Source: a virus
IMG/VR virus record: IMGVR_UViG_3300033146_005439
Coordinates: 47,383 to 111,382 of that record
Length of the DNA stretch: 64,000 nt
Reading direction: 5' to 3' (one strand)
Below the pieces are notes generated by a model. It ran no database searches, was not told the DNA's origin, and saw only the letters and a program-made list of their open reading frames with translations. A program made the translations under genes and the position numbers. Shown piece by piece: positions 27,201 through 52,062 of this stretch. Each line of letters opens with the position of its first letter. The stretch's first letter is position 1.

Positions 27201-30200
27201 AGTTACTCCTAAACCACCTTTTTTAATATCCCCCATAAAACTAGTTTTAACACTAGCACCTATTTCCTTCAATTGTTCAATATTAAGATTAGAAACAAAA
27301 CTACCAACACCTTTAGCCATAGAAACACCTTTAGCTAAAGTGGTTTTCATACCTTTCTGTGCTTGATATGTTGAAATATTCTCTATAGTCTTAAGAGGGT
27401 CTAAAGCTAAAGTTTTACCTACTCTAGCACCTAGTTCTAAAGTAGCAGCACCAGCTTGACCTAAAATATTATGAGTTCCTTTTAGTCTATAATCTTCTAA
27501 AGATTGTATTCCTTTACCAGCTTGCGTAGATAGCCAATTAAAAACACCACCACCAGAAGCGTAGCCTTTACCTTGATTCAACTTTCTAGCAGCAGTAACA
27601 CCACCTATAGCTTTAACTTCATCAGGTGTTAAAAGTAATTCACCATTACTAACATTTACAGGAACACCTCCCTTAGCAAAATTATTTAAAGAAGTTTTAG
27701 CCTTATTAGCATATTTAGATTGTATAATAAAAGAACCTTCTGGCACACGCATACTGATACTATCAGAGGTACCTGTTCCTGGACCCTTTATAGTGGTTCC
27801 TATAGTACCACCTAAAGCTTTTTCTTCAGAAGTTAACTTCTTAAAATAACGAGCTGGTGAAAAAGGCATAGTTTTAGAACTAAAAGGTATACTACCAGGA
27901 AGAACATGTTGAAATAAGGTTTTTAATTTGTCGCCAAAAGATTTTAATTCATCTTCCGGAAAAAATTTAGTTGAATCTATACCTAAAGTACTTAGAGTAT
28001 CTTTTGCCTGTTCCTTACCTCCAGACATAACTTCTAATATCTTAGCCAAAATAAGTGTTTGAGAATCTAAAGCATTAACTACAGGTGTATTAGCATTTTT
28101 AAAATAATCAGCATATTTAGTTTCATCACCACCAAAAGCTTTATTAATTAAACCTGTCTTTATATCTTCTAAAATAGTCATGTCAGGTTTTTGAGCTACA
28201 GCATTATTACGTGTATTTTCACCAGCCTGTTTAATCATATCATATAACTTAGAAGCCTGTTGCCCAAAATAACCTCGTTGCTCTTCATTAAAATTATAAT
28301 TAGGATTATTAGCAAAAGAAGACAACTTATCAGCAAATTCTTTTATAGGAGCAAAATTAGTTCTTGTTATATCTGAAATTTGTTGTAATTTTTCAGACTT
28401 CTTATAAGCAGCTTTTTCAGAAGGTATTAAATTAAGTTGAGTTAAAATATCAGAACGTTGAGTCCCTTTAGAAGTTCTTAATTGTTCCATTAAATTTGCT
28501 CTTTTTATATCAAACTGATTGGATGCGCCTAAAGTAAGTTGAACACCCGCTTTAGATGCCTTGTATTGAGCATAAGGATCAATAAATTGAGGAGCAAAAG
28601 AAGAAGAACCTCCATACATAGATTCTAAAGAACGTTTAGCTTCAAAACTACCATACTTCAAACCAGATAAAGAATCTGTAGCCTGCGAAATACCTTGTTC
28701 TAATTGAAGCATAGCAGCAGACAAACTTTTAAAACCATTTAAAGTTAAAGAAATGGAAACTAATTCTTTTTTCAATTTATTTAAAACATTATCAGTTTCT
28801 TTTGCAGATTTGGATAAAAGTTCAAGTTCAAGTCTAACCTGTTTTTGCACTACTGATTCTGAAGTTGAAAACCAACCTTTATTACTAGGTAAAGCATTAT
28901 ACTCCTGAGTCTTTAAAGCTAACTGTTTAGCTATACTAGAACGTTCAGCTAACTTAGCTTCATATAAAAATTGCCTATCTTTATAAGAACGCATTAAATT
29001 TTTAGCTTTAGCTCCTCCAGCCAAACCCATAAATTGTTCAACATTTAAATCATTAATATTATTAGGAATTAATTGTAAACCTGAAGGAGTACCACGTAAA
29101 TTACCATTAAATCCTTGATTTTGTAAAGAATTTAAATCATCTAATCTTTGTGACATTAATTCTGCTGTCATATCTGTAGCAGAACTAAAACGATTCAAGG
29201 CTTGTTCTGCTAAAAGTGATGCTTTTAATAAAGCTCCGCCATGGGCTAGTTGAGATTTAACCAATTTAGCTAATTTATCAGATTCTTTTTTAATTAAGGT
29301 ATCCCATTTTTTCTGTTCACCTGAATTAACAGCTTGAGATCTATTAGATACCATAGCATTAATTCTACTTTGTGCATCTATTATAAGTCTATCTAAAGAT
29401 TTATAAGCAGTTAAAGCTTTTGTTGTATCTGTAGGAGATTTAAAAAAAGAACTCGTTTTTTCAACTAAAGTTTTAGGCTCTTTACGACCTTCTAATAACT
29501 GCATCAACTGGAACTTATCTAAACCTCGCATAGATGTTTCACCTAAAGAAATATTAGTAGAAGGTACACTCATACCAGCATAAATACCTTTACCTATTTT
29601 TAAAGAATCTTGTATATCTTTAGCAAAATTAGTATTTTTTATATCTCTTTCTATAGTTTCTAATTGAATCTTAAATTTCTCTGCTAATTCTAATTTAGTT
29701 AATTCTGCTTTTAATTTTTTAACATCTTCTGTAGTATCATCAAAAGTAGTTTCAAGATTCTTTTTTAATTTTTCAGTATCTTTTACAGCTTTTTTATAAG
29801 CCTCTTCAGAATCCAATATAGTAGATTCTTTTACAGTAGATTGATTACCACCAACTTTAGTACTATTAACCGTCTGTTTATGTAATTCATCGTAAACTTG
29901 TTGTGCTGCAACCGAATTTTCTGAAATAATGGCACGTAACTTAGCAGCTTCTACATCAGCCCCTTGTTTTAAATCTGCTGCTCTAACTTTTTGAGTATCC
30001 TTTTCTGCTACATAACGTGCTAAAGTGGAAGCTGTTGCTGCAGTAGCTATTTGAGCCACTTTATTATAATCTATAGGATCTACAGATACAGTAGGACCTT
30101 TAACTTCTCCCCCTGCAGCAAAACTACCAATAATACCACCGTGAGCTAAAGTATCTAATTGACCTTTTTGTAATTTAAGTAACTTGTCCCTACCTATAGC

Positions 30201-33200
30201 CTTAGCCATAGTAGGTGGTATAATTAACTCACCATTACTAACTCGTATAGTGGCAGTTTTGCCAGAAGAACCTGTATTATTAGTAGCATAACTAGATTTA
30301 GCAATCAATGCTTTTGCTTTATTAGCATATTTAGAAGGTATTACAAAAGAACCTTCAGGCACATCTTGCAAAAGTATAGAATCAGAAGTACCTGTGCCAG
30401 GCCCTTTAACAACACCTCCTTGAGCAAAAGATTGCACGTAGCCTCCAAAAGCTTTATTATCTTTTTTAGTAGCCATCTTATCAACAGCTTCTTTCATTTT
30501 ATCAGCAGCTTCATTCATCTTGTCCGAAGCTTTTTCCATACCAGGTTTAATATAGTCTTCCCTAACAGATTTAGGTTTAGTAGCACCTGCAACTTCTTTA
30601 ATCCCTAAAGATTCTTCTGCAAAATCTTTCATAAAAGTTGATGAAGCTTTTTTCAAACCTCTAAAAGCAAAAAATTCTTTAACTTTACCAAATATACCTT
30701 CGGATTCTGATACAGTTTTAGCAAAATCTTTTAAAGCTTGTCCATATTTCTTAAAACTTTCGGGTAGTTCTTCACCAGTTAAACCTGTTTGCATTTTAGC
30801 TGCAGCATAAGTCCCTATAGCTCCTCCAACTGCTCCGGAACGCATAGACCATTTATCACTAAGGCCCATTTTACGCGCAAATAAAGTTGCTGCACCAGTA
30901 CCTGCAGACATACCTTGTAAAGAACCATAAAAACGAGCTTTTTTATACTCTTGAGCTTTTTGAGCTAATAACTCTTCTTGACGTTTTCCATACTCTCCTG
31001 ATAGTTTATATTTCTTACCTTCGGGTGTAATAGTAGAAGATACTACTTCACCTGCCTTTAAAGCGCGTTCTGATAATTTTTTTAATTCTTGATCAATAGC
31101 TTCTATCTTTTTACTAGTATAATTTCTTTTATATGTAGCAAATACTGCTGTTCCTGCAGCTAAACCGGCCATATTTTTAGAATTAAGTAAAGAACTCTCT
31201 GCTACCTTAGTTTTATTCTCTTTTTGTAGAGCTTCTAAAGTGGCTACTTGTTTATCAAACTCCGGAGTACCTCCCTTACTTCTTAAACCAAACCATTTAC
31301 GTTCATCTGGCATTTTATTACGTAATTCACCTAATAACGTATTAGCATTCATACCGGCAAACGCTCTACTATACATTTCTTTACTAGAATATGATCCTGG
31401 ACCACCAACACTTTTATTGTCTATCATCTTAGCAGCGCCAGCCAAACCTTCTCTAGAAATGAGTCGTTTAGTCAATAAATCTAAAGCTCTATTAGATTTA
31501 ATTAACATCTCAGAATCACCTGTTTTTGCAGCGGTATCTCTTATTTTGGCTACTCTATCTAAAGCGGATACTATTTTACCACTTTCTGTAACAAAGCCCG
31601 GTAATAAAGCAGAAACTATATCATTAGGTGTAAGCATTAAATCATCTAATAAAGTAGAAAGATTACGTACTTCACCTTGTTTATCAAAACGCTCTATTAA
31701 TTTGTCTAATCTATCTACGGTATTAGCTGTATTTTCAGCAGTTTTTGTAGTATCTACTTTTAATTCTTTTAATTCATTACCTGGCCCTGCTACTTCAGTT
31801 AAATACTTCTGAAAATCTTCAGGTTTAACAGCTGTTCCAAAACCTTTAGATACCTTTCTAATACTATCCAAAGCTACTTTAGTTTTATCTATAGCGTAAA
31901 TATTATTTGCTGTACCTTCACGTTTAGCTTCTAAAACCTTTAATTGTTTGGCCATAGCCTCAAACTTAGGATTTTTAATAAGCAATCTTTGCTGAGCAGT
32001 TAATTTAGTTTTATCTTGTATGCCTAAATCTAAATTAGCTAACTCTTTACTTTTTCCTGACATTAAACCAGCAGTTTCTCTAGTTAATTTTAAACGTGAT
32101 TCTGTAACAGCAACATTCTCAGCAGTAGCTCTACTATTAGCTTCCATAGCTTTAGTTAAATCTACAAAAGCAGCTCTATATTGCATTATAATTTGATTAT
32201 TCTTCAAAACATTCTGAAGTTGTACAATCTGATCATATAAACCAGTAGTCATTTTTATAGATTTAGCGTCTATACCATCTAACTTCATTTTTTGAAGACG
32301 TTCTAATAAGAAACGATACTCTTCCATAGGTTTAGCATAATATTTCTTAAAATCAGCTGCCCAACCCTTTTGAAAAGGTGACTTACCAAAAGATTTTTCT
32401 AAAGGATTATAACCTTTTGCACCTTGTAAAATAGTAGAAGTACTTATTTCACTAAAAAAACGTTCTCCTAGATTAAAATTACGCTTAAAATCTTTTGGTG
32501 AAATACCTCGTAATCCAGCCCCCGCTCCTGCCATAAATTCATTTAAAGCACCTATTCTATCAGATAAATCTTTTTCTATTTGTCTAACAGGTAATACAGA
32601 ATCAACGATAGCTTGCATATTACTATCAAACTTATGTGTTTCTACTTTTAAAGTTTTAGTGTTAAAGTAAGTAGCTACCCAATCATAAGTTCCATCAATA
32701 GTCTTTTTATATTCTACTATAGCTTGACGACCTGCCATATTAAATTTCTTAGCTGCATCATCCATAAAAGTTACAATATCACCACTTAACACTTTACCTT
32801 GACGCTTAGCAATACCAGCACTTTCAACATTAGCTGTAGTTAATTCTTTAGTAACATCTAATAAACCAGATTTAGTAGGATAAACACGTTTCATTACTTC
32901 TTGACCTAAAACATCTTGCCAAGAAGCTTTACCTTTCATAGCACCTACTTGAAATTTTGGTTCTATTTTAAGAGCCATCTCATAACCTTTTTGTAGTTCA
33001 GGACTACTTAAAATTCTTGAAATTTCATCAGTAGGTAAACCTTTTAGTGACATACTACTTAAAGTTTTTCTAAAACCTTCATAAGAACCCTTAAGTTTAT
33101 CACTTAATTTTGTTACTTTCTCTTGTAATTTAGAAATATCTTTATCATAAATATCACTTAAAGAATATTTATTTTTCTGTGACATCATATAATTAAGTTC

Positions 33201-36200
33201 TTTTACTGCCTCTTTTAAAGCCTTGGCTGGTGTTACATTTATACCTTTTGATAATAAACCACCAATAGCAGGAACCTCTTTAGCTAAAGCTTTTAATTCA
33301 TATTTCCATTTCTCTGAACCACCCGTAGCAGTCATATCTTTTATATATTTAGAAGCAATACTTACATCAGTTTTAGCCATTTCCCGTAATTTTGATTTTT
33401 CTAAAACAGAAAATAAATTTTCAAAATCTCCAGAAGCTTTTAATACAGCATTACCTAGTTCATCATAACCAGCTACTAAAGAGTTATTTACTTTAGCTAA
33501 ATCATTAGCCATCTTTGTAGCTTCCTGTTGTTTATCCACCATTTCAAGTAGAGGACTTCTATAAGTTCCTAAACGTTTAGATTCTTTTTGGGCTGCTGGA
33601 GACATACTTTTAATTATGTCTTGATAACCTTTTTTAAAAGTAGAATAACCATGAGCTACATTACGTAATGTTTTTAATTGATCTTCTTGTGAACGTTTTA
33701 AACCATACATAGATTTTTCAAAAGCTTCTGCAGATTGCATAGAAGCTATAAACTCTTTACTTAAAGATTTAAAAGCAGGAAGTAAAGTCATAATAGTTAA
33801 ACCTAAAGGTGCTATAGACTCAACTAAACCTGAATTCTTTCCTGCCCATTCTTTAAATAAATCGCCTCCGGCTCCTAATTTTTTGCTAAAAGCATCTACA
33901 AACATACCTGCAGCAGAAGCTCCTAAACCAACAAATTCACCGGCAACAGCCGTAGTTGCTCCAGCTAGTTTACCTAAACTCTTAAAACCGTATTTTTTAA
34001 ATAATTCTTTAACTCCTTTAGCAGAACCATAAGTTCCTGCAGCACGAAGACCTATATCTTTCCAGGTAGTATCTTCACCCTTATCTTTAACGCCAGCAGA
34101 ACTTGCCCCAGACAATGCAGTTGAAGTAAAACTTAAAAAATTACCAATTTTCTTTAAAGTTTTTCCTACAAAACCTGTGGCACTTGCAGTACCTTTTGCT
34201 GTGGCTGCAACATAAGAATTAAACTTCTTACCTAAATTAGCTATTAAATAAGTGGACTTGCCTAAAGCAGAATTAAAATCAGATAATTGTTTTCCTCCAG
34301 CAACACCACTTACTACTCCTGGAGTTACAGTTTTTAAACCTCTGACTGAAGTAGTGCCTGCTCCAGCTCCTAAAATTTCAAAAGCCGCTGTTTTTAATTC
34401 ATCTTTAATAGAACCAAATAAACCTCCAGCAACAGGTGTTCCTGTAGATAAAGTATCAGCTATTGAACTAATAATTTTATCGCCTTTAGATAAGAAAACT
34501 AAGAAACCTAACATTGCGGCGCCGGCAGCTTTTATAGAATCAGGGATACCTGCTAATGTTTCAGCTATAGTCTTTACTGCCTTTAAACCAAATTTAAATA
34601 CAGGAAAAGCTACTTTTCCCACAGAAGTTTGTAATTCTACCATAGCAGCTTTAGTTTGCTCTAACTGTTTAGCATAAGTTTTCATTAACTCTTGATTTTT
34701 ACGCTCAGCTGAACCTTTTGAATCTACACTATGCCTAATAGCCTCTAAAGCTTGTCCCCAATTATCCATTAAAACTAATAAAGCATTATATTGACGAGTA
34801 CCACCTATGGCTTGAGCGATATTCATCTTTTGTGCTTGAGTTAAATCTTTCCATTTACCGGCTAATTCATCTAAAATATTAAAACCACCTTTTAACTCAC
34901 CAGAACCTGTAATTGTAGAAATACCTAATTTACCTAACTCTTTAGGACCTTTCTCTGAAGTTAATCTACGCATAATAAAACGCATAGAAGTACCAACTTC
35001 TTTACCAGACTGTCTTGTAGTAGAACCTATAGCAGCAACAATACCATTTAATTGATCAAAAGTAAATCCAGCATTTTTTGCTGCAGAAGCCGCCTTCTTA
35101 ATAGCATCCGCCATATCACCAGCAGTAATAGCATGTTTAGATTCTACCTCTGACCAAGCATCTAAAAAATGCATAGAAGTTTTACCTTCTTTATTAAATA
35201 CTTTCATAGCTGCAGTTAAAGCTTCTGTAGCATCTTTAGCATTCAAAGTAGTAACATTAGCTGCTAAAGTAGCTGTTTGTGTTCTTTCTAGTATTTGAGG
35301 TTCAGGTAAACCTTGTTGTGCAAATACTTTCATACCTTGAAGAACATCTGTTACAGCTACTCCATATTGTTTAGCCATATTAATAGCTGATTTTTGTAAA
35401 TTATCAAAATCACTAGTTAAAGGATTCATAACCATTCTTAAACTAGCCATTTGTACTTCTATATCAGCTAATACGCCCACAGACTCTTTTAATTTATTAA
35501 AACCTCCATAAACTATGGTAGAAGCAGCTCCCCACATAACAGCTCTTTTAATAGCTCCTTGAATACCTCTATGAGAACCTGCTAAAGATTCATTCATATC
35601 AATTTGCTTCGTTGTAAATTTACCTATAGTATTACCAGTTGCATCTACAACTTCTTTATATTTTGTAAAAGCTGTCTGAACATTTTTTACAGCATTACCA
35701 GCTTGATCAAATACTTTTGCTTTATAAATGTAAGTCTCTCCTACTTTAGCACCACCTTTTGCTGCAGGAGTCTTCATGTAATCCCTTATTTTAGCTATAT
35801 TACGTTTATTTAAAGCTTCTTGTGTTTTTGGATCTAACCATTTAGGAACACTAACAACACCAGTTTCTCCCCAAGCTCCTGGACCTTTTTTAGTGGTTTG
35901 ACGACCTAAATCCATATAAGTAAGCTTATTTTCAGCATCCTTTAACATTTTAATAGTCTGTTCTAAATTCTTACGTTCTACAGACAAAGGAGAATCTGAA
36001 ACATTATACTGCTTAAATAATTCTAAAGCATCCCTTAAACGTGTTATCTTTTGAGCACCACCTTTAAAATCCCAAGCCTCTGCTATTTCAGGTCCTAAAC
36101 GTTCTAATAATTTACCATCTTCCATTAATTTTATAAGTTCATCATCCATAGAAGTTAAAGACTTGATAGCAAAACGAGCTTTTTCCATAGGAGAAGCCAT

Positions 36201-39200
36201 TGCATCACGTTTATCACCAGAAAGATCACCAACTATTTTTTTATAAGTTTCATATAAATCGGAATCACCTTCTATATCTACAGCAGCCTTGGACTCTATC
36301 TCTGAAGGAGACATGTAAACACCAGCGGCTTTAGCTATATCTGGTTGTGACCATACTTTATTTCTAGTGTATATATCACTACGTTTACCCACACCTTTTT
36401 TAACATGTGCTTGAACATCACCAACAGCCTTTGTAAAATCAGTATAAGCTAAACTTATTTGTCTAGAATCTTCAGTCTTCTTTACATTTTCTAAATACTG
36501 TTTTGCTTGCTCTGCTTTTTTAATTAAGTATTCTAATTGAGCGTCTTTAAAAAGTTTCCAAGCATTAGCTAATTTAGCACCATCTAATTCAGGGTTTTCT
36601 CTAGATTTATCTAATATTTGAACATCTTTTATATACTTAAAAAAATCAGAAGCCTTAACATTACCAGTTTTAGCCCCTTCTATCATATCTTGTGCTTGAC
36701 GAGGTAATTCTTTCGCAGCTTTTTCTAAATCAACTCCATGAGAAGCTTGCATAGTTTTAGCTGCAGCACGCAATAATTTTATATTCTTTAATTCTGCTAC
36801 AGGTCCCGAACCACTATAAGGTGTTAAATTTAAAGTTTGTGGTTTTTGATATTCAGGTTTTGTAAATTTATTAATTTGATCTTGAGAAATACCTGCAGAA
36901 CCAGTACCTTTAGACTTATAAAAAGCACCCTTATTTCTATAAGCTTCATAGTAAGAACGGCCACCTTTTAATAATTCTTGAATTTCACTTTTAGAAGGTC
37001 TGCCAGGAACTTGTGCACCCTTAGCTTTATAAAGAGATTCTTCCTTAGCTATTTTTGATAAAGTCTCTAAACTCCCTGTTTTAGCAAATGAAATAGGTTT
37101 ACCAGAAGCAATTTCTTTTTGTATAGCTTCTCTAGCAACCTTTATGGCTTTCATATCTTTTTTAAATAAATTCTCATCAAACTTAAATCTAACTACTACA
37201 GGCTTTTCATTTTTTGGATCTCCCATCCTATCATAAAAATGAACTTCTGCTTGCTGCACATCATCACCAGCTTCCTGTAAAGCCTTCATATAAAAATTAA
37301 GTTGTGAACGAACTTCTTCTATCTTATAACGAGCATAACTAGATGACTTTTTATTGCCTAATTTACCTAAAACAGCTCCTACATCTGCAGATCCAGCGCC
37401 TTCAACAGCTTTACCTAAAGTATCTTTTAATTTACCACTAACTGTTTTAATATCAACTGCTGTAGTCATCTTACCTTCAGCATTAGTTAATATAGCATCC
37501 ACATGCCCTGTAATAGCACCCACAGCATCATCAGCATAACTAACAAATTTTTCTATTATAGGTGTTCCTTGACCTTTAATTTTATTAGAAGCTTCTACCA
37601 TACGATCTTCAATCATCTCATGTAAAGCAGTACCAATCAAAGAGGTAGAATCTAATAAATCCTTATCAACATCTTTCATTGCTGTTCCCAGCATAGTTTC
37701 TTTAATACTAGCTACTTGTTTTTCAAAATCAGGGCCTTTATAATTCTCTTTAAAACTAAATTTGCCGCCGCCATGAAAAGCACTAGCTCTATACATAGTT
37801 TCAAAAGAAGCATCTTTTAATTCATTAGCACCACCAGAAGCTCTAGCAGCAATGTCTTTCAATTTATTTATATAAGTAGTTTGATCACTTCCTGCACTTA
37901 CAGTATTTGCAGCAGCTTTAACCATAGAAAAAGTATTAGCAAATTTAGTAAATACATCAGAATTAACACTAACTAAATGAACAGGAACTATACCAGAACC
38001 CATAGAGTACTTACCTACACTAGGTTCTGTGGGTGTAGGAGGTAAAACACCTCCAGATTTTGATTGAGCACCACTTAAACCCTTGGCTCTATTATATTTA
38101 GCCTCTGCAAGCTTAGCTCTAGTTTCCTGTATTTGATTCCTTCTTGGTAATTCTGTAGTACTAGTAGAAGTAATATCTTTTGCTTGCACTGATAAAGCTG
38201 TATTTAAACGCTTTATTCTTTCTGTCAAAAGAGCTTTAGTTTCTATAAAAGAATCATAAGCTTTATAAAAAGAAATTAATTCTTCCTCTGACATACCACT
38301 TTTAGGTGGGGCAGGCTTATTAGTTAATTTACCTATAACAGATTTACTCTGAAGAATTTGCGTTCTTTTATTAACACTTATAGGAGCTATTCTTAAAGCA
38401 GTTTCTAAAGAATCTAGTTCATCAATAAAAGCCCTCAAAGATTGTACAGATTTAGCACTGTCAAAAGTGATATTTTCTATAGCTAACCCCATAGCTTCTA
38501 ATTTTTTAGAATCTATAGAAGAATTAACTCTTTGTAAATCTTTAGAAAAACTACCAGTCATTAAAGAATAAGCACCTCCTCTAGTATCTTTAGTTGGGTG
38601 CTTAATATCGGAAGCAAATGTTTCCATTAAACCACTTTTTAAACGGCCTGAAGCTGCTCCTGTTCTATATTTATATAAAGGATCAAAAGGTTCTGTAACC
38701 ATCTTTGACATATTAATACCTTTACCCTTTTCATATAAAGAAGTTAAATACTTTTTAGCTCCGGCTTCACCTAAGGGTTCTCCTGTCTTCTCATCTTTAG
38801 TTTGAGATAAATAAGCTATAGCTTGTTTTTCTATCGATTTTTGTAAACTACGTAAAAAACCCTCAAAACCCATAGCTTTTACCATAGCATTAACTAATTC
38901 AGGTCTATTTAGCTGCTCAGCATTTTGAATATTCATATAAGGTTCTTGAGCAGCTTTTCTTAAATCTTCTGTTTTATACCTACCTAAATTTAATTTAAGT
39001 GCTTTATCATTCTCTTCCATAAAATCTTTTAAACCACCATAATTCCCCCCAGCTTTAATTTTACCAATTAAAACCTCTAAAGCTTTGGGACCTTTAGTTA
39101 AAAGAGAAGATAACTCCCCGGCTACAGGAGTTTCACCAGCATGTTTAACATCCATACCTTTTTGCACAGCAAATCTATATAACTCATTTAACTGTGTCTG

Positions 39201-42200
39201 TCTTTCTCTTAATAAATTAGTCCTATCTAATTTATTACCTGAACGAGCATTATTTATTTCCCCAGAACCAAAACCTATTTGAGCCTCATAGGAACGCATC
39301 AATTTTGTTAAACTCTCAACATCAGTACCTGTATGTAGTTTAAATAACTGAGCATTAACTGCATTATCGAATTTTAAATTAGATAAAGATTCCTTTAAAT
39401 AACCTTCTACTAAACCAGCCATAGGTTTATCTTGTTCTGTTAATTTATCTAGGGCTTCAGCTGCTTTTTGTGCAGCTTCATCTAAAGTTTCTACACCTTC
39501 TATAGATTTAAAAGAAGCTCCCGCTTTAGTAAACATTTCAGTCATCAAAGTATTTACAGCATCTGGACCAGTTAAATTATCAGTATCTACTTTCTTACTA
39601 GCTAAAATATTTATTTTTTCTTTATTAGACAAATAACTTAAATTTTCCGTATAAAAAGGTTTTTGTAGATAATCAAAACCATGTTCTTTTGGAAATTTTT
39701 TAGTATAAGCTTTTGCCATAAATGCTAAAGGTGCTGCACCTTGAGTAGGCTGCATAGCATCATAAGTAAAAACGTCTCTAAAACGAGCTGCAGTGCTATC
39801 AACTTCTTTCGTTAAAAGATCAAAATGACGTTTTATTTCTTGTCTAGCTTCTTTTATGGTAGCAGTATGTATTTCTATTTGATCACCATCATAATCCAAT
39901 TTTTGAGCTTGAGCAATGTATTTCGGTAAAGCATCTGATAAAGCTTTACTTAAAGCATCAATGTATTTTGTAAGCTCATCTGCTTTTTGATTAGTTTCTG
40001 GAGTACCTATAGTTCTAAGTTCTTCTCGTTTAGTAGAAGCCTGTTCCATACGAGCCTTAATACTCTTAAATAAAGCATCAAATTTATTTACATCCATTTC
40101 AGGAACGCCAGGTACTAATAAAGAATCTTCGTTTAAACCTTTAGTTGTTTTTAATAACTTAGCTTTGTAAGGTTGAACAGAAGAAGTTCCTGTAAAAGGA
40201 AATCTTACAGACTCTATATAAGGAGCCAACTCTTTATCAATATAATCCCTAACTTCTGGTTGGGCTGAACCTTCAGCTAAAGACTTCTCTAGTTTTTCAA
40301 CATAAGTTAATAAAGATGTTAAAGTACTTTTTACATCAGAAGATTTTGTAACTTGACCTTTAGTATCAAATTTTTTGGTATAAGAAACCGATAATTTATC
40401 AGCTAATTTCTTTGGAATACCCAATTCATTTTGCTTTAATACTGGAAGTCCTATCTTTTTATAAGAAGCTACTTTCTTTGCATGTTCAGCCCCTAAGCTC
40501 TTTACTAAAGAAACGTCTTTAGTAAAATCAGCTTGACCTAAATCCTTAATTACTCCAGCATATTGTTTATTAATATTATCTAACATAGAACCAAATTTCT
40601 TCATATCAGCTGTTTTATCTACCATAGCATTAGTAGCTTTAGCTAATACAGCAGGAATTTTCTTAGTAAAAAAAGTTTGTGCTACAGCCCCACTTTTTCC
40701 TACAAGTTCTTGTTCTAAAGATTTAAAATATTCTTGTTTAGCTTTTTCTAATTGGGCTAATTTCTTAGTAAGAATTTGGTTCTCATCTTTTTTAAATAAA
40801 GCTACTTCATTAAAATCCATACCCATAGAAGCCTTTATATCTTCTAAAACTTTAAATTGTGCATTAGTACCTTTTTTAGAAGATACTATAGAAGGACCTG
40901 AGGAACCCTTACCTGGTTGATAATCACCTAAAAGTAAAGTTTTTAATTCTGCGGCTGTTCTATCAAGAGGGCCTAATTTATTTTTAGCTGATATTTTATT
41001 ATTTACAAAAGCCTCTTTTAAAGCTGCGACATACTCTTTTTGAGATGCTGTACCTACTCCCTGTAACCCAGCAGCATTATATTTTTTAATACTTTCAGGT
41101 AAAAGACCTTTTTCCGAAGAAGCATTCTGCTCTGCTACTTTGAATAATTGTTCTATATAAGTTTTCTTAGAAGACTCATCAGTATTTTTTAATTTACTTT
41201 GAAGATTACCCCCAAAATATTTTAAAATAGTCTTTTTATCATTCTCATTTAATAAAGATAAGTCTTTATTTTGATAAGCACTTAAAGACCTAGCAGAAGT
41301 TAATACATTTTGAAGTGCACGACCAGTACCTGTTATACCATAACCACCGGCTACATTAGGATCTGCGAAAGGCTGTCTAGCTATAGAACTAGGAACATAA
41401 AAATCTTCTTTAACATTACGATTTGCTGTAGGTAATTTAGTTTTAAAAGCAGTAGGAAATTTATCTGTATCAAAAACGGACCCTAACATTGAATTAGCAG
41501 CACCTTTTTCAAAAGTGCCAAAAGAGCCTTCAAAAGGTTTAATATCTTTTAAACTTACCGTATTTAGTTCTTTTAAAAATTGTTCGCCATAATCTTTATT
41601 AGAACTTATTAGATAAGTTAAAATGTTTTCATAGGCTTCAGCTTGTTTTGCATCATAAGCAGCGTTTATCTGCTTTAACATGTTTGAATCCGGCCCAAAA
41701 ATTGATTGATAAGCAGCATAAGCAGGTAGATTTAATTTTAAACCTTTTGCTCCTGAGGCTATATCTCCTTTAGACCATTCTTGAAATTGTTTTGCATCCT
41801 CTATGATCTGAACAAATTTAGGACCCACTAAACTTTTATGTTTATTCCCTAACTCATCTATAACATCTACATAAAAACTAGAGTCACTTTCTAACTTAAC
41901 TAAAGCATCTATAAATTCTTTATTTTCTGCAGCTTTATCACCATACATCTTTTCTATAGCTTTACGTATAGCTGCTTCAGATTTACCAGTGCCTGCATAA
42001 CCTAATGTAGCAGCATAAGAGCTTAAAGTTCCTTTTTTAGATGTAGGACCTAACAACTTTTTATAATCAATTTTATCCTTTATTACAGTAGTACCAGTCT
42101 TACTAGTTGAAGCTAAATTACCTGTGATCATTTCTAAAGCTTCTGTTTGTAAACCACGTTTAGCTGCACCAAAAGAACTTATTCTTATATCTATAGGTTT

Positions 42201-45200
42201 AGCTTTAACCAAAGATTTGGAAGGAAATATCTTAGAATATTGTGTTTTTAATTGTTGTATACCTTCTATACCATCTTTTAATTCTATACCTAGTTGTTTA
42301 AAAACTTGTTGTGTTTGTTCAAAAACTTTTTTATTTACATTAGCTTCTCCACCTACAACTAAACCTTTTTCTGGATTTTTAAAAAGTTCCAACATAAATT
42401 TATTACCTGAAGTTTTTAAAGCTTTAACTAGATCTTCTACAGGTATAGAAGCTGTACCTTTTAACTGTGAAGCATTTTGTTTAATAATTTCAGAGGCTAA
42501 CTCACCCATACTTTTAGGTAGCATTGCTACACCAAGACCGGCCTTTTTCTGCTCGGCTGCCGTCATAACCTTTATAGAAGGTTCTTTATATTTCTTTAAA
42601 ATCTCTGCCATACTTCCAGACTTAGTAGGTGTTATAGAAACACCTTTAGACCCATAACGTGTAGTAAATTTTCTGCCAAAATGGTTCATAAAAACTTCTG
42701 CAAGTTTAGCTGTCTGAACTTCAGTACTTTCACCTCTAACAGTAGATAATTCCTTTTTAACTTCTTTAATTAGTGCCACATCAGCACGACCTTTATATTT
42801 CTCAGGCACTCCCATAATACTCATAATTTCACTACCAGCTTTACTAATATCACCTTCTTGAATAGCAGTAGCCTTACCTCCTGCGGAAGTAGGCCTAACC
42901 AACTTTTTAGTAACAGTAGTAACAGCTTTAGCTAAATCACCAGCAACAACTATTTGGTCCTCAAAAGTACTAGCAGTATGACTTAACTCTGCTAAAACAT
43001 TAAAGCCATAACCTTGAGTACCCATACGGCCACTCATAATAGCTTCATTTTCTCTATTAGAACGTAATGTAGGAAATTGAGATTTAATACCTGAAGCTTT
43101 AGCGTAAGCTGTAGGATCAAAAATTTTAGCAGAAGAAACATTAGATATATTACGACCTAATTGCTGAAATTGTTGGCCGAAAGGAGCCATAGCTTTTAAG
43201 TCATCTTTATATAAAGAAATCATTTTACCATGAAGAGTATTTAACTCATTTATACCTTTAAAATCAACTTCATCTGTAAAATTATAAGTATTATTTTTAG
43301 AAAAATCTACTATAGCACCAGCAGTTGATTCTGGTAAACCTAAACTAGATAACGCACGAGCATTACCCAAATTAATTTGCTTTTTCCTGGTTTTAACTTC
43401 TGGAACATCAAGCTTATCTAAATTTTGATATTCATACAATAATTCTCTATTTCTTTTATTAACATTACGAATAAATTCTTTTTGTTGTTCAGGGCCAAAC
43501 ATAGGTTCAAATTCAGTATCATCCTTAAACTGTTTCTGATAAGCTGAAGAAGTTTGATACATAGACTTAACTATATTAGATTGATGCATACCTCTTCGAG
43601 GTTTATCATATTCAACTATAGGTAGTAAACCTTCCATTTGAGATATAGCTTTTTCAAACTTTCTAAAACCTCTTTCTGAAGTATCAGCATGTTTAGTTAT
43701 AGCTTCAATTTTTTGAGGTAAAGTCTTATTTAAAATATCATAAAAATTAGAAAAAGAAATCTCATCTAAGGACTTCACTACTTTATAGGCACTCATTCCA
43801 GCAGTATCCATAGCATCTATAAAAGCATCCACAGACTTAGCACTGGCAGCAGTTCTATTAATTAAGGCTTCAAATTCTTTTTGAGCAGTCTTAGCTTTTA
43901 CTGGTGCTACCGTCCCTGAAGTAATTCTTTGTTTCTCTATAGCCATAGGAATAGTGGCTTGTTTGTAAATCTTTTTCACATCCTCTAAACCTATATCTTG
44001 TAAATTTCTAGCACGAGTATTACCAGGTAAAGCTAAAGCTTTAACTAAAGCTTTAGTTATAGCATCCATATTAGCAGGTACTTTTCCTGAATCTAAAGCT
44101 CGGGTTCCCTTAGCTAATTCCATAGCTTTATTAGAATTTAAACTACCTCTACTCTTTAATTCTGAAACATAAGTATCAAAAGCTTTTTCAAACCCTGATT
44201 TATAAGTAGAATATGAAGATAAAGCTCTTTGTCTACCTGAAGGTGTCTCTACTATAGGAGTACCTTTAGAAGTAATTTTAGCGGAAGGTAGAGAAACCGT
44301 TTTAAGCACACCCTGCTTAGATAACAACTGACGTATCTCACCTTCACCTAAAGTAGCTCCATAAAGTTCATCTAAGTGATCCTTAAAATTTTTCTGTAGT
44401 AAATCACTAATATTTTTAGTTGAAGCTGCAGGATCTTTACTGATTTTATTTACTATCTCTTTTAATTTACCATCGTAAGTTCTAGTATTTAAATTATTTT
44501 TTAACCATTCAGCTACATTATCAAAATGCTTTTCTACTTCTTTGGACACTACATCTTTCTGACCACCCTCTCCAAAGAGTTGCTTAGATAATTTTCTTTT
44601 ATAATCATTAAGTAATTTATCTATAGGTCCTTTTTTACCCGTATAAGATTCTAAAGCTTTAGAAGAAGCGATATCTACATTCCATTGTCTGCCTCTTAAT
44701 TTAAAAGCTTGTCCTGGTGTTTTACCTACAACATTCCATCTACCAGAATTATCAGAAGATTGTTTTAAACCTTTATTTAATTCATCAAAAATTCTTTTTT
44801 GAAGTACTTGTAAAGATTTAGCTAAATTTTTAGCATTAGCATAAACTTCTTTTTCATAAGGATTTTTTATAGAAGAAGCTGCTTTAGAAGTACTTTGTAT
44901 AAAAGATTCTCCTGGATAAATAGGCATTTCTTTAAAAGCTTTAGTAGGTACTGTGCGTCTAAAGCTACGTAAGCCAGCGGTAGAAGTGCTAGCTTGTTTT
45001 CTTATATTACTTTGTATAGTCCGTGCTTCTAATTCACGTGCTTTATTTAATTGACTAGTAGTTTTAACTTCTTCTTTTCTAACTTTAACTACTTCTTTAT
45101 TAATAGTAGTAATATCTTTATAAGATTGATCAACATCATCAATAGCTTTAGATAATAAAGCACCTTGTTTAGTAGATAGTTGTTCTAATGTTTTATTTAA

Positions 45201-50472: not shown

Positions 50473-52062
50473 TTAACCTACACGTCTAACCTTATTACCA
50501 TTTGTAACATTACCAATAGACACGTCGCCCTTAACTACATAAAGATCATTAGTAGATCTAAATGAGAAAGTCTGTGTAGCATTAGCACCCATATCTAAAG
50601 TCATACCTTCATCCGTAATCTTAAGATGCTCAACAATAACAGTCTTAAGTGGATATTCAGTATCCCCAGCAGCATAAGTTCCCATAACACCATCATGCCA
50701 ATAATTCTGACCTATTAATTTAGAACCAGCCGCTACTTTACGGGCAGAACCTGTACCACCAGCTTCCTCATCTGTTTGAGCATAAACTTTAACTATAAGT
50801 TTAAGATCTTCAGAAGTCATAAGATCAGCAAGATCTAAATCTTCTAAAGTATTAGCATCAAATTCAGCTAATTTATTAGCAACCTTAGCCCAGTTCTCTA
50901 AGTCGCCAGCAGTAGAATCTACAGATACTGTAATAGGAATAGGCATGGTAAGAGGTCTATCATAAGGAGCTAAATGCCCAAGCTCAGATAGAGGCTCACG
51001 AGTAAGGTCACAACTAATGGTACAACCAGTTAAACGCCAAGCAATATCATAAGCTGTGTCTGTTTCAGAAATTATATGAACTTCCACTTGACCCTGACGA
51101 AGAGCACCAATAAAATCAGGCCTATCAGTATCATGTAAAATTTCAAAATAAGTATTATGAGCACCAGTACCATAAGCATTAGCAGCATAAATAATTTCTA
51201 AACGATCATCTGTAGCAAATGTATTATTTGTTGGAAAATAAACACGGTGTTCTGTTCCGTTATCATGATATACAAAAGTATCAGCCGCAGCAGCTGAACC
51301 AGCAACAACTTCAATAGTTTTAGCAGTATTAGCACTTACATCATATACAGTTATACCAGGAGCACCATTCTCATCTTTTCTTAAGAAACCTAAACCCGAA
51401 GATAATACAGCTACATCATCCCCAGCGCCTAAAGAAAGAAGAACAGAACCCGCAGTTAAATCTGCAGAACTTAACTTAAATGAGTCTTGGTTAACAAAAC
51501 GACCATCATTTAATAACCACATTTTGTTATCAGTTTCAGCACCATAGTTCTCAGTTGCATTAGCACCCGAAGAATAAGCAAATTCAAGACTATTAATATA
51601 GACTTTGTCAAGAAATACTGTCTGATCAATATTATTAGCTAAAGATCCGATAGAGCACTCTTCCTGAACGGGAGCCCATAAACTAACGCCGGGCAAGTTA
51701 CCACAGGTAACAGCGAAGTCAGCCAAACAAGCACCATGTAGAAAAGTTCCTACAGGACTCATAGCGCTATCTACAACTTCAAGGTTAGCATTATTACCTG
51801 AAGCTGTCGTATCCATAGCACGTTTCTCAGGAAGAACCTGTGCTAATGTAGCAAGTGTTTTAACATCACCAAAATCATTGGTATTTAACGTTACAGCCAC
51901 ACTAGGAACATCATCAACAACGTCAATAATATCAAGGTGGCCCAATTCGAAAATATCTTCACTGGTAAAAGTAGTTGTAGAACCAAATGACTGGACTCTA
52001 TAGAGTACCTCGCCATTACACCACACACTTTGTGATGCATAAATTATTCTATTTCTAGCCAT
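50473..52062 (-). CDS. Probable major tail tube protein
   Basis: 529 aa; strong AAGGAG RBS, its own leader and terminator; RVQSFGSTTTFTSEDIFELG and CDLTREPLSELG tube-like hairpin motifs; located between completion and chaperone genes. Confidence 0.65.
   Translation of the reverse strand: MARNRIIYASQSVWCNGEVLYRVQSFGSTTTFTSEDIFELGHLDIIDVVDDVPSVAVTLNTNDFGDVKTLATLAQVLPEKRAMDTTASGNNANLEVVDSAMSPVGTFLHGACLADFAVTCGNLPGVSLWAPVQEECSIGSLANNIDQTVFLDKVYINSLEFAYSSGANATENYGAETDNKMWLLNDGRFVNQDSFKLSSADLTAGSVLLSLGAGDDVAVLSSGLGFLRKDENGAPGITVYDVSANTAKTIEVVAGSAAAADTFVYHDNGTEHRVYFPTNNTFATDDRLEIIYAANAYGTGAHNTYFEILHDTDRPDFIGALRQGQVEVHIISETDTAYDIAWRLTGCTISCDLTREPLSELGHLAPYDRPLTMPIPITVSVDSTAGDLENWAKVANKLAEFDANTLEDLDLADLMTSEDLKLIVKVYAQTDEEAGGTGSARKVAAGSKLIGQNYWHDGVMGTYAAGDTEYPLKTVIVEHLKITDEGMTLDMGANATQTFSFRSTNDLYVVKGDVSIGNVTNGNKVRRVG

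What the first reader, a model, noticed from the sequence alone, without database searches (positions are those of the whole stretch)
38800..44310. Complete beta+beta'-like RNA polymerase fused into the tail tape measure protein
Seen: about a dozen motifs occur in the same order as in cellular RNAP beta followed by beta', in one chain. Beta side: TSKGTPIV..GRQR ~ TDNGTFVINGTER; RGMHQS ~ RDVHPT; AMAPF..R ~ SLIPF..R; GFNVLAE..FEDQIVV ~ GQNMRVA..FEDSILV; KFTTRYGSKG ~ KMAGRHGNKG; PIDIRISSFGAAKR ~ [14 protein letters not shown]. Beta' side: YVPSSIAR ~ VLPPDLR; LVGKSG ~ IKGKQG; LGIPKKLA ~ CGLPKKMA; VRFP ~ NRAP; LDYDGDQIEIH..EARQE ~ ADFDGDQMAVH..EAQLE; QKGMDVKH ~ trigger loop QLTMRTFH with identical spacing. 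The same ORF continues into a TP901 tape-measure core. Established: two-barrel RNAPs use DxDGD plus the two beta lysines. As I recall, Thermus phage P23-45 gp96 is a tail-tape-fused virion RNAP and crAss-like phages package a single-chain RNAP, so the concept has precedent (verify). Inference: this is a virion RNAP delivered through the tail for host-independent early transcription. Its recognisably cellular-like motifs in an AT-rich phage may mark a new lineage or an independent fusion.
Basis: partly seen in the sequence, partly recalled or inferred. Interest (0 to 1): 0.95.

Follow-up and report, generated by a model that had tools for sequence, protein, structure and literature searches.

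The report
RNA polymerase fused to tape measure
The 7,470-residue tail "ruler" protein of an uncultured large phage from hydrothermal-vent samples carries a single-chain, cysteine-free version of the cell-type RNA polymerase core ahead of its ruler part. The phage probably injects its own transcription enzyme, a trick proven so far only in one unrelated Thermus phage group.

Summary
Window 24228-46640 (minus strand) is one uninterrupted 7,470-aa ORF. It reads: helical N-terminus, RNA-polymerase-like region (aa ~780-2680), nuclease-like domain, TP901-type tape-measure core (Pfam PF10145, E 7e-32), long C-terminal part.

- **Beta-prime half: shown.** The predicted structure matches RNA polymerase largest subunits from all domains (Z 11-11.6, ~270 residues, colinear with E. 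coli beta-prime 24-506, clamp included). D[FY]DGD is kept in 57 of 58 full-length relatives.
- **Beta half: sequence evidence only.** The core aligns at E 7e-12 with a compact ~1,100-aa RNA polymerase found in complete relatives, and that enzyme hits Pfam Rpb2_6 and Rpb1_2. Its barrel did not fold confidently.
- **Trigger loop: unverified.**

At least 58 full-length relatives (5.8-8.0 kaa) keep the fusion, so it is not an assembly artefact. Complete relatives are ~230-270 kb and carry two polymerases, as P23-45 does.

No similarity to P23-45 gp96 was detectable, so this is a separate, unpublished lineage. The protein has no cysteine at all, and neither does gp96.

Packaging and injection are inferred, not shown. 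This scan has already noted and followed up the same family on other genomes.

The parts
24228..46640 (-). Single 7,470-aa ORF (TTG start): tape measure protein with embedded RNA polymerase. It contains no cysteine.
44331..46640 (-). N-terminal ~770 aa: helical or coiled-coil region, poorly conserved among relatives.
   Evidence: only coiled-coil-type matches
41541..44318 (-). Beta-like module, aa 775-1700: lobe-like N-terminal part, beta barrel motifs and start of the connector.
42945..43007 (-). Beta barrel motif GFNVLAE...FEDQIVV (aa 1212-1232). It aligns with E. coli beta GQNM...FEDSI. E1227 and D1228 are invariant.
42639..42677 (-). Beta barrel motif GRKFTTRYGSKGV (aa 1322-1334), with two invariant lysines K1324 and K1332. 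It aligns with E. coli beta GDKMAGRHGNKGV.
42132..42197 (-). Motif PIDIRISSFGAAKRGLQTEALE (aa 1482-1503). It corresponds to beta [22 protein letters not shown] and lies after a ~130-aa lineage-specific insertion.
38601..41540 (-). Beta-prime-like module, aa 1701-2680: clamp-like N-terminal part, catalytic barrel and downstream region.
40170..40208 (-). VRFPFTGTSSVQP (aa 2145-2157): first half of the beta-prime barrel, corresponding to NRAPTLHRLGIQ. A ~70-aa helical insertion follows.
39882..39896 (-). DYDGD (aa 2249-2253): catalytic metal-binding aspartate triad.
39135..39164 (-). QKGMDVKHAG (aa 2493-2502): conserved motif proposed as the trigger loop. Unverified.
   Evidence: no profile or structure support
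37401..37673 (-). PD-(D/E)xK (Cas4/RecB-like) nuclease-like region, aa ~2990-3080.
   Evidence: phrog_1706, E 0.0018; a similar motif in 27 of 58 relatives
31689..35825 (-). Tape measure core, aa ~3606-4984. PF10145 covers aa 3749-3947 (window 34800-35396).
26748..26762 (-). HEIGH (aa 6627-6631): zincin-type metallopeptidase signature in the C-terminal part. Found in only some relatives.
50473..52062 (-). 529-aa upstream protein, a candidate tail tube protein. Two small genes at 47774-48514 and 46662-47684 lie between it and the giant gene.
   Evidence: lead only; same gene order in relatives

Best explanation
The giant gene encodes the tail tape measure protein of a large, probably long-tailed, uncultured phage. 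An active single-chain DNA-dependent RNA polymerase of beta-then-beta-prime (two-barrel) type is built into the N-terminal third of this protein.

Shown here:
- The fusion is real and conserved across independent assemblies.
- The beta-prime half has the cellular fold, clamp region included.
- All known catalytic residues on both barrels are under strict conservation.

Inferred:
- Like other tape measure proteins, the protein sits in the tail tube and is expelled ahead of the DNA at infection.
- The polymerase lies at the head-proximal N-terminal end. It would therefore enter last, next to the leading DNA end, refold in the cytoplasm, and transcribe the first genes without the host enzyme.
- Needing no cysteine or zinc would suit passage through the tail in an extended state.
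- In complete relatives one likely target of this early transcription is a compact ~1,100-aa paralogous polymerase, which would then take over. This is the two-polymerase relay shown for Thermus phage P23-45.
For: Fusion:
- One ORF of 7,470 aa with PF10145 at E 7e-32 and PHROG tape-measure hits.
- 22 giant relatives. Among the 110 representative clusters plus those, 58 are full-length, 5,817-7,998 aa.

Catalytic conservation:
- D[FYW]DGD in 57 of 58 full-length relatives; one has DHDGD.
- The catalytic E, D, two K, and the R-x-P and D-x-D-G-D residues are invariant in 75 sequences at 32-47% identity.

Beta-prime fold:
- The AlphaFold model of aa 1185-2384 has pLDDT 77 and pTM 0.62.
- VIA-align gives Z 10.7-11.6, 245-280 aligned residues and 15-18% identity to E. 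coli beta-prime 24-506, Thermus beta-prime and Pol I/II/III.
- An unbiased search of 48,161 chains puts Pol I (Z 11.2), Pol II (11.0), QDE-1 (10.7), archaeal A' (10.6), vaccinia (10.2) and ASFV (10.0) at or near the top. It also returns a clamp-Spt4/5 entry (Z 8.6) and a designed double-psi barrel (rmsd 2.0 A over 86 residues).
- Pfam Rpb1_2 is hit by 11 of 21 members, best E 3.4e-4.
- hhalign against an RpoC profile gives E 0.006 at DFDGDQ..H, plus colinear weaker hits.

Beta barrel:
- hhalign of the core profile against the compact paralogue gives E 7.4e-12, probability 97.5% and 401 columns. This covers all three beta motifs and the connector.
- The paralogue hits Pfam Rpb2_6 (E 0.0017-0.0048) and Rpb1_2 above its cut-off, and an RpoB profile at E 0.0016.

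Two-polymerase scheme:
- The compact polymerase is present in the 100%-complete 268.8-kb relative and the 86%-complete 228-kb relative.

Cysteine avoidance:
- 0 Cys in 7,470 aa, against 1.2% in the phage's other proteins.
- 45 of 58 relatives have 0 Cys and the rest have at most 4. gp96 has 0. The compact paralogues have 16-23 Cys.

Precedent:
- P23-45 gp96 is a tape-measure-fused polymerase that transcribes pre-early genes, including the gene for the second polymerase (PMC10770324).
Against: - No experiment or proteomic datum places this protein in a virion or shows activity.
- The beta barrel segments (aa ~1185-1240 and 1320-1335) were modelled with pLDDT below 50 in both models.
- Structural matches to beta subunits are weak, Z 4.1-5.4.
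- HMM searches against PDB sequences and phmmer against 1.84 billion proteins found no cellular RpoB or RpoC.
- Zinc sites and the CPxETPEG motif of cellular enzymes are absent. The bridge helix and trigger loop are unverified.
- This contig is only ~42% complete and lacks the second polymerase gene, so the relay is inferred from relatives.
- How a ~1,900-aa folded enzyme would be stored in, or pass through, a tail tube is unknown.
Confidence: 0.8

Rival explanations
1. Processed polyprotein. The ORF is translated as one chain, but the polymerase, and perhaps the nuclease, is cut from the ruler part during assembly. It is then packaged separately as an ejected internal protein, or released in the infected cell, so the mature enzyme is not physically tape-fused.
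For: - A zincin HExxH signature lies in the C-terminal part (aa 6627) and in some relatives. gp96 is also annotated with a metallopeptidase domain.
- The architecture is modular: coiled coil, polymerase, nuclease, ruler. The module between polymerase and ruler varies among relatives, with RNase_T in P0021 and P0022.
- A few relatives have the gene split or begin mid-polymerase (P0072; L014 and L024).
Against: - HExxH is found in only 5 of the 22 closest relatives by simple pattern.
- No conserved cleavage site was identified.
- The strict linkage in one ORF in 58 relatives argues that co-translation and co-assembly matter.
- This reading does not contradict virion delivery.
Confidence: 0.25
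2. DNA-entry motor. The main job of the fused polymerase is mechanical. Anchored at the membrane channel formed by the ruler part, it pulls the ~265-kb genome into the cell by transcribing it, as RNA polymerases do for phage T7. Gene expression would be secondary.
For: - The fusion to the channel-forming tape measure is conserved.
- Relatives have very large genomes, 228-269 kb.
- The P23-45 authors themselves propose transcription concomitant with DNA translocation through the tape-measure pore.
- T7 internalisation by transcription is established knowledge (from memory).
Against: - Nothing in the sequence distinguishes this from ordinary early transcription.
- The two roles are compatible.
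- No promoter array at a genome end could be sought, because the contig is incomplete. No repeated motif was found in it.
Confidence: 0.15
3. A different template or product. The two-barrel module works as an RNA-dependent polymerase (QDE-1-like), a primase or a DNA polymerase (PolD-like), not as a DNA-dependent transcriptase.
For: - QDE-1 is among the top structural matches (Z 10.7, 198 residues).
- The two-barrel fold is shared by these enzymes (PMC7824862).
Against: - The longest and best matches are to DNA-dependent beta-prime-type subunits. They include the N-terminal clamp region, which QDE-1-type enzymes lack.
- The motifs match beta and beta-prime, not PolD.
- The genome has its own family A DNA polymerase and DnaB helicase.
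Confidence: 0.04
4. Inactive relic or artefact. The polymerase-like region is a degenerate structural spacer that only adds length to the ruler, or the fusion is an assembly error.
For: - Very low similarity to any known polymerase by ordinary searches.
- Loss of zinc sites and of CPxETPEG.
Against: - The catalytic residues are invariant across 75 sequences at ~30-45% identity.
- The uninterrupted fusion recurs in dozens of independent metagenome assemblies.
- Near-identical fragments occur in runs of three studies.
Confidence: 0.02

Closest known systems
Thermus phage P23-45 gp96 (also P74-26, G20c, TSP4): tape-measure-fused virion RNA polymerase (Chaban et al. 2024, PMC10770324)
   Same: - A two-barrel RNA polymerase with D-[FY]-DGD sits in the N-terminal part of a giant tape measure protein, and a metallopeptidase signature lies further down.
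- A second, compact, paralogous single-chain polymerase is encoded elsewhere in the genome. Here this is seen in complete relatives.
- Both giant proteins contain no cysteine at all.
   Different: - No detectable similarity in the polymerase part (hhalign) or the ruler part (BLASTP).
- The protein is 7,470 aa against 5,002 aa. The polymerase region is ~1,900 aa (aa ~780-2680) against an active core of ~800 aa (327-1124).
- This one keeps a clamp-like beta-prime N-terminus and lobe-like beta N-terminus, whereas gp96 is described as flat and clamp-less.
- The host setting differs: AT-rich ~230-270-kb genomes from vent and sediment metagenomes, against an 84-kb thermophile phage.
Cellular multisubunit RNA polymerase beta and beta-prime (RpoB/RpoC; Rpb2/Rpb1)
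   Same: - Order and identity of the catalytic motifs: G-x-N...FED, K...R-x-G-x-KG, P-[IV]-D...R, Y-V-P..R, GK.G, G-[IL]-P, R-x-P, DFDGDQ..H.
- Beta-prime N-terminal half including clamp and double-psi barrel, at Z ~11 with 15-18% identity.
   Different: - A single chain fused to a tail protein.
- No zinc-binding cysteines and no CPxETPEG.
- Large lineage-specific insertions: ~130 aa after the lysine motif and ~70 aa of helices inside the beta-prime barrel.
- Below the detection limit of HMMER against PDB and 1.84 billion proteins.
Compact ~1,100-aa single-chain polymerase of the same phage lineage (L166:4212-7520, L167:2335-5592)
   Same: Paralogue. hhalign gives E 7.4e-12 over 401 columns (beta barrel, connector and beta-prime N-terminus) and E 1.9e-4 over the beta-prime barrel. 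Both share the unusual [FW]EDQI variant.
   Different: - Free-standing and cysteine-containing (16-23 Cys).
- Lacks the insertions and the N-terminal lobes.
- Directly recognised by Pfam Rpb2_6 and Rpb1_2.
- Not present on this 42%-complete contig.
crAss-like phage phi14:2 gp66 and N4 virion polymerases (packaged, ejected giant polymerases)
   Same: A very large virion protein that carries the phage's first transcriptase into the cell. gp66 is also a single-chain two-barrel enzyme (abstract of 10.1101/2020.03.07.982082).
   Different: - Those are head or 'cargo' proteins of short-tailed phages and are not fused to a tape measure. N4's enzyme is T7-like, not two-barrel.
- gp66 did not appear among the top 50 structural matches, which is inconclusive.

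Membership tests
Two-barrel (double-psi beta-barrel) RNA polymerases | Beta-prime-type barrel carrying the DxDxD metal-binding triad, preceded by [RK]xP | tested here: met
   - DYDGD at aa 2249; R2146 and P2148 are invariant.
- Barrel fold match to a designed double-psi barrel, rmsd 2.0 A over 86 residues, and to beta-prime, Z ~11.
- Pfam Rpb1_2 hit in 11 of 21 members.
Two-barrel (double-psi beta-barrel) RNA polymerases | Second (beta-type) barrel supplying two conserved lysines or basic residues | tested here: met
   Met at sequence level.
- K1324 and K1332 within R-K-x-T-T-R-x-G-x-K-G are invariant in 75 sequences.
- The motif aligns to GDKMAGRHGNKGV.
- The region aligns at E 7.4e-12 to a paralogue that hits Pfam Rpb2_6.

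The fold itself was not confidently modelled.
Cellular-type beta/beta-prime RNA polymerase core | Beta-prime N-terminal clamp region colinear with the barrel | tested here: met
   Model residues 497-1113 (aa 1681-2297) align with E. coli beta-prime 24-506. The clamp-Spt4/5 entry 3qqc gives Z 8.6.
Cellular-type beta/beta-prime RNA polymerase core | Beta lobes or protrusion N-terminal to the beta barrel | tested here: inconclusive
   Only weak rows to beta subunits: 8qma_A Z 5.4, 6j9e_C 4.5, 6rfl_B 4.4 and 7s00_c 4.1, for model residues 1-378. They are positionally consistent with the GTxxxxGxxR motif.
Cellular-type beta/beta-prime RNA polymerase core | Bridge helix and trigger loop | tested here: inconclusive
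   QKGMDVKHAG is conserved. hhalign against an RpoC profile reaching residue 1150 did not pair it. The region lies outside both structure models.
Cellular-type beta/beta-prime RNA polymerase core | Zinc-binding cysteine clusters of beta-prime and the CPxETPEG motif of beta | tested here: not met
   Zero cysteines in 7,470 aa. No P-x-E-[TS]-P-E pattern.
P23-45 gp96-type tape-measure-fused virion polymerase (Oshimavirus) | Polymerase and tape measure in one ORF, polymerase N-terminal | tested here: met
   Conserved in 58 full-length relatives.
P23-45 gp96-type tape-measure-fused virion polymerase (Oshimavirus) | Sequence or profile homology to gp96 | tested here: not met
   - hhalign of the 75-sequence core profile against gp96 1-1200 gave no relevant hit, best E 0.19, off-motif.
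- BLASTP of the ruler parts gave E 0.5 or worse.
- tblastn against 50,697 phage records gave no match.
P23-45 gp96-type tape-measure-fused virion polymerase (Oshimavirus) | Presence in virions and transcription of pre-early genes from own promoters | not testable with these tools
   The phage is uncultured. No RNA run holds the stretch. No repeated promoter-like motif was found on this partial contig.
P23-45 gp96-type tape-measure-fused virion polymerase (Oshimavirus) | Second, paralogous non-virion single-chain polymerase in the same genome | tested here: inconclusive
   Present in complete or near-complete relatives G029 and G028. Absent from this 42%-complete contig and from other partial contigs.
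TP901-family phage tail tape measure protein (PF10145) | PhageMin_Tail core domain, in the tail gene module | tested here: met
   - PF10145 full length at E 7e-32; phrog_4211 at E 3e-81.
- The upstream 529-aa protein resembles tail tube clusters (lead only).
- No tail sheath family was found in G000, G028 or G029.

The most novel reading that the evidence does not exclude
A widespread lineage of ~230-270-kb long-tailed phages evolved the P23-45 strategy independently of the Thermus phages. That strategy is a cysteine- and zinc-free virion RNA polymerase threaded through the tail as part of the tape measure, plus a compact paralogue that takes over transcription. Unlike gp96, this enzyme started from, or has kept, a nearly complete cellular-like beta/beta-prime architecture with clamp and lobes. 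If so, the enzyme would be a deep-branching link between multisubunit cellular polymerases and the minimal single-chain phage enzymes. Complete loss of cysteine would be a general signature of proteins that must cross the tail unfolded.
Probability: 0.35. Interest if true: 0.9.

Novelty: new variant of a known kind. Interest (0 to 1): 0.75.

Why it matters
Until now, a transcription enzyme built into the tail ruler was a curiosity of one small group of Thermus phages.

- **Distribution.** The design recurs in a large environmental phage lineage that shares no detectable sequence similarity with the Thermus phages. That lineage has about 110 clusters at 50% identity, of which about 58 are full-length. 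So the design looks like a general solution for host-independent early transcription in long-tailed phages.
- **A more tractable enzyme.** This polymerase is more cell-like than gp96. It offers a natural, zinc-free, cysteine-free, single-chain beta/beta-prime core for studying minimal requirements of two-barrel polymerases and their evolution.
- **A possible search criterion.** Both lineages purge cysteine completely from a 5,000-7,500-residue protein, while the free paralogue keeps its cysteines. This hints at a physical constraint of tail passage and could help recognise other ejected proteins.
- **A gap in annotation.** Public annotation calls these genes only 'tape measure protein', so the polymerase is currently invisible to databases.

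Tried and rejected
- **Direct searches that found no polymerase.** phmmer of aa 701-2700 against PDB. tblastn against 50,697 phage records. Profile HMMs of the whole region and of each half against PDB sequences gave only coiled-coil or chance hits. phmmer of the core against 1.84 billion proteins returned family members only.
- **Pfam on the beta module.** No Rpb2 family was hit by any of the 21 members at E up to 1.
- **Foldseek.** The beta-module model against PDB gave nothing. The core model against PDB gave no hit at E 0.001 or better, although most of the top 50 rows were beta-prime chains at E 0.3-0.9. Against viral predicted structures the best row was a 'minor tail protein' of Siphoviridae sp. 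ctnpt50, E 0.019, probability 0.72.
- **Known single-chain phage polymerases.** gp96 and phi14:2 gp66 did not appear in the top 50 VIA rows. This is inconclusive, not evidence of difference.
- **Local HMM search.** An RpoB HMM against all family proteins gave scores of 7.6 bits or less.
- **Host assignment.** The three MAG contigs carrying relatives are labelled Woesearchaeota, Fermentibacteria and Gammaproteobacteria. These are most likely binning artefacts and were not used to name a host.
- **Promoter search.** No repeated 12-16-mer promoter-like motif was found on the contig.
- **Expression.** No RNA holder was listed for the stretch.
- **Read support.** Logan contigs of three runs cover the stretch only in short pieces, and the listed joints have 20-39-base sides and look spurious. 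They neither add to nor detract from the continuity argument.
- **Other polymerase and tail types.** No T7-like polymerase family matched, but that search's control also found nothing, so it is uninformative. No tail sheath family was found in G000, G028 or G029, which is a weak negative.
- **Literature.** The 'moraphage' jumbo lineage (PMC12619734) was checked and is unrelated: T4-like, with a sheath and no polymerase.

Full report
**What is there.**
Window 24228-46640 (minus strand) is a single open reading frame of 7,470 codons starting at TTG. The window is the right-hand 64 kb of a 111,382-bp IMG/VR virus record. That record has 29% G+C, almost all genes on one strand, no terminal repeat, and a CheckV completeness of 42%.

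Pfam finds a full-length PhageMin_Tail (PF10145, TP901-type tape measure) domain at aa 3749-3947 (E 7e-32). PHROGs finds twelve tape-measure families over aa ~3600-4980, the best at E 3e-81. The only other signals are three:
- a sub-threshold Rpb1 domain 2 match exactly at DYDGD (aa 2245-2270);
- a Cas4/RecB-like nuclease PHROG at aa 3000-3071 (E 0.0018);
- an unknown-function PHROG over two copies of a GPGTGTSDS... repeat.

Almost none of the neighbouring proteins match PHROG or Pfam families. The 529-aa protein upstream resembles tail tube clusters in the protein atlas (a lead only). The order tube - two small genes - giant gene recurs in relatives. No tail sheath family was found.

**The observation.**
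They are not a selection from noise. In alignments of 21-75 relatives sharing only 27-47% identity with the window's protein, they are the conserved islands. Invariant in 75 sequences are:
- E1218, E1227, D1228 (GxNVxxE...FED);
- R1323, K1324, R1328, G1330, K1332, G1333 (RKxTTRxGxKG);
- R1495, G1496;
- R2146, P2148, G2151;
- K2247, L2248, D2249, D2251, G2252, D2253, H2258.

**The fusion is real.**
- A word-indexed search found 22 proteins of 5,817-7,955 aa with both parts.
- An exhaustive HMMER scan of 1.84 billion representatives found 110 clusters. Counting the proteins as well, 58 are full-length (5,817-7,998 aa, median ~7,430).
- 24 IMG/VR contigs, 80 metagenome contigs and 3 MAG contigs carry relatives.

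D[FYW]DGD is present in 57 of the 58 full-length proteins, and one has DHDGD. An assembly error that hides a stop is therefore excluded. A few relatives have in-frame TAG codons or frameshifts.

**Beta-prime half: fold confirmed.**
An AlphaFold model of aa 1185-2384, built on a 75-sequence alignment, reached pLDDT 77 and pTM 0.62.

Foldseek gave no significant E-value, but most of its top 50 rows were beta-prime chains. Re-alignment with VIA-align gave Z 10.7-11.6, 245-280 aligned residues and 15-18% identity. Model residues 497-1113 (aa 1681-2297) ran colinearly along E. coli beta-prime 24-506, Thermus beta-prime 12-785 and Pol I A190 18-670. All 50 listed entries were largest subunits of RNA polymerases.

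An independent scan of 48,161 cluster representatives gave the scores below.

| Match | Z |
|---|---|
| Human Pol I | 11.2 |
| Pol II | 11.0 |
| QDE-1 (198 residues, spanning model 135-1094) | 10.7 |
| Archaeal A' | 10.6 |
| Vaccinia | 10.2 |
| ASFV | 10.0 |
| M. tuberculosis beta-prime | 9.2 |
| Designed double-psi barrel (rmsd 2.0 A over all 86 residues) | 8.9 |
| Archaeal clamp-Spt4/5 entry | 8.6 |
| AR9 | 8.5 |
| phiKZ | 8.0 |

Helical-bundle rows in the same list map to a ~70-aa helical insertion inside the barrel.

At sequence level, Pfam Rpb1_2 is hit by 11 of 21 members (best E 3.4e-4), while no other family is hit by more than 3. hhalign against a 25-sequence RpoC profile pairs DFDGDQxxxH at E 0.006. 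It then pairs, colinearly, PVLKQxELGIP...RYPFTG with PYLRLHQCGLPKKMA...NRAPTLH at E 0.14.

**Beta half: established through a paralogue.**
Two lines of evidence were weak:
- The beta barrel segments were modelled poorly in both models. Structural matches of the beta module to beta subunits reach only Z 4.1-5.4, although they cover model residues 1-378 against beta ~95-695 and are positionally consistent.
- Profile-profile comparison with an RpoB profile returns, as its two best local hits, GfNV...FEDQI against GQNM...FEDSI and GRKxTTRyGsKGV against GDKMAGRHGNKGV. The E-values are only 0.21 and 0.34.

The decisive link came from relatives. The 100%-complete 268,764-bp genome and an 86%-complete 228-kb genome each carry a second gene of ~1,100 aa. 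It hits Pfam Rpb2_6 (E 0.0017-0.0048) followed by Rpb1_2 (25.6 bits, above the cut-off). It also aligns with an RpoB profile at E 0.0016 over the lysine and PVDIV motifs.

The 75-sequence core profile of the tape-fused enzyme aligns with this compact enzyme at E 7.4e-12 (probability 97.5%, 401 columns). The alignment runs through all three beta motifs, the connector and the YVPxxxR motif. A second hit at E 1.9e-4 covers RxP...DFDGD. The beta barrel is thus homologous to Rpb2 domain 6 by transitivity, and the two enzymes are paralogues.

A distant family member (P0081, 6,409 aa) even reads PWGFEDSII and GDKFISRGGNKGV.

**What is not shown.**
- The proposed trigger loop (QKGMDVKHAG) is conserved but was paired by no method.
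- The bridge helix is unidentified.
- CPxETPEG is absent.
- The protein has no cysteine at all, so the zinc sites of cellular beta-prime cannot exist.

'Complete beta plus beta-prime' is therefore only partly demonstrated.

**Cysteine avoidance.**

| Protein set | Cysteine content |
|---|---|
| This protein | 0 in 7,470 residues |
| 45 of 58 full-length relatives | 0 |
| The other 13 relatives | at most 4 |
| Other proteins of this phage | 1.2% (about 90 expected in a protein this size) |
| P23-45 gp96, 5,002 aa | 0 |
| Compact free-standing paralogues | 16-23 |

This contrast within one lineage, repeated in an unrelated lineage, fits a constraint tied to storage in and passage through the tail. 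That link is an inference.

**Relation to the known case.**
Chaban et al. 2024 (PMC10770324) showed that the N-terminal part of P23-45 gp96 is a virion RNA polymerase. It transcribes pre-early genes, including the gene for a second, paralogous polymerase (gp64). Fusions were reported only in P74-26, G20c and TSP4.

The present family shows no detectable similarity to gp96, either in the polymerase part or in the ruler part. It keeps a clamp, whereas gp96 is described as flat and clamp-less. No paper in the held library describes a second lineage.

The survey filter used in that paper was [RK]xPx{20,100}DxDxD. It would pass this protein only just (exactly 100 residues) and only 22 of 56 relatives.

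This scan has, however, already noted and followed up the same family on several other genomes, with the same conclusion.

**Setting.**
Relatives reach 228-318 kb, so these are jumbo-size phages. Near-identical fragments occur in hydrothermal-vent metagenome runs of three studies. The genome has its own ribonucleotide reductase, an intein-bearing family A DNA polymerase and a DnaB helicase. The complete relative has a sigma-70 region 2 match.

**Mechanism proposed.**
Shown: a conserved in-frame fusion of a catalytically intact-looking two-barrel polymerase to a tape measure core.

Inferred from established tape-measure biology and the P23-45 precedent:
- The protein lies in the tail tube and is expelled before the DNA.
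- The N-terminal polymerase enters with the leading DNA end and starts host-independent transcription, possibly while anchored to the channel formed by the ruler part.
- The compact paralogue then takes over.

At the usual ~1.5 A per residue (from memory, lambda gpH), the part from the tape-measure core onward would give a tail of ~0.6 micrometre, and the whole chain ~1.1 micrometre. This is speculative. Proteolytic release of the polymerase, a role as a DNA-entry motor and other template specificities remain open (see rivals).

**Verdict.**
This is a new, widespread variant of a kind known from a single published case. Function in the virion remains untested.

Noticed in passing
whole ORF, window 24228-46640; relatives P0002-P0081; L113:13288-28296: Complete absence of cysteine from the 7,470-aa protein. 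The same holds for 45 of 58 full-length relatives and for the unrelated P23-45 gp96. The phage's other proteins have 1.2% Cys, and the free compact polymerase paralogues have 16-23 Cys.
   Followed up: yes
L166:4212-7520 (-) in G029; L167:2335-5592 (+) in G028; also L169, L170: Complete relatives encode a second, compact (~1,100 aa) single-chain beta/beta-prime RNA polymerase that is paralogous to the tape-fused one. It is not on this partial contig.
   Followed up: yes
G029:C1:27239-27433 (-): The complete 268.8-kb relative has a sigma-70 region 2 match (32.5 bits) in a 259-aa ORF. This hints that part of the programme uses the host polymerase or a sigma-dependent step.
   Followed up: no
L014:13115-13117 and 14132-14134; also L053, L074: Some relatives have in-frame TAG codons inside the giant gene (two in L014). 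This could be amber recoding, read-through or sequencing error. L024 shows frameshifts instead.
   Followed up: partly
window 37401-37673 (aa ~2990-3080): A PD-(D/E)xK, Cas4/RecB-like nuclease-like region lies between the polymerase and the tape-measure core. A similar motif occurs in 27 of 58 relatives, and two relatives (P0021, P0022) carry an RNase_T exonuclease domain (PF00929).
   Followed up: partly
window 48880-49710, 49753-50331, 52185-53600: Three HNH/homing-endonuclease genes are inserted in the tail gene module. The first two look like one gene in two pieces.
   Followed up: no
L001:15725-18943 (-), genome 15725-18943: The family A DNA polymerase (1,072 aa) is interrupted by an intein with a LAGLIDADG endonuclease.
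   Followed up: no
window ~30404 and ~27785 (aa 5413 and 6286): Two copies of a ~35-aa motif (GPGTGTSDSI...VPEGSF[VI]I.SKYANKAK) in the C-terminal half match phrog_11341, a family of unknown function.
   Followed up: no
window ~24500-24800 (aa ~7290-7350): A run of short VDV-type repeats (…VPVDVSDATVKVDVGDAKVPVDV…) lies near the C-terminus of the giant protein.
   Followed up: no
P0072 (7,100 aa; DFDGD at aa 765): One relative starts in the middle of the polymerase: its residues 23-879 match core residues 322-1160. In some phages the beta part may therefore be a separate gene.
   Followed up: no
BFVD entry A0A8S5SD80_1: The best viral predicted-structure match of the core model is a 'minor tail protein' piece of Siphoviridae sp. 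ctnpt50 (E 0.019, probability 0.72, 1,177 columns). It may be another tail-fused polymerase in a gut phage.
   Followed up: no
window 39489-43088 in runs X1-X3: Near-identical sequence occurs in hydrothermal-vent metagenome runs from three studies, which suggests the habitat.
   Followed up: partly
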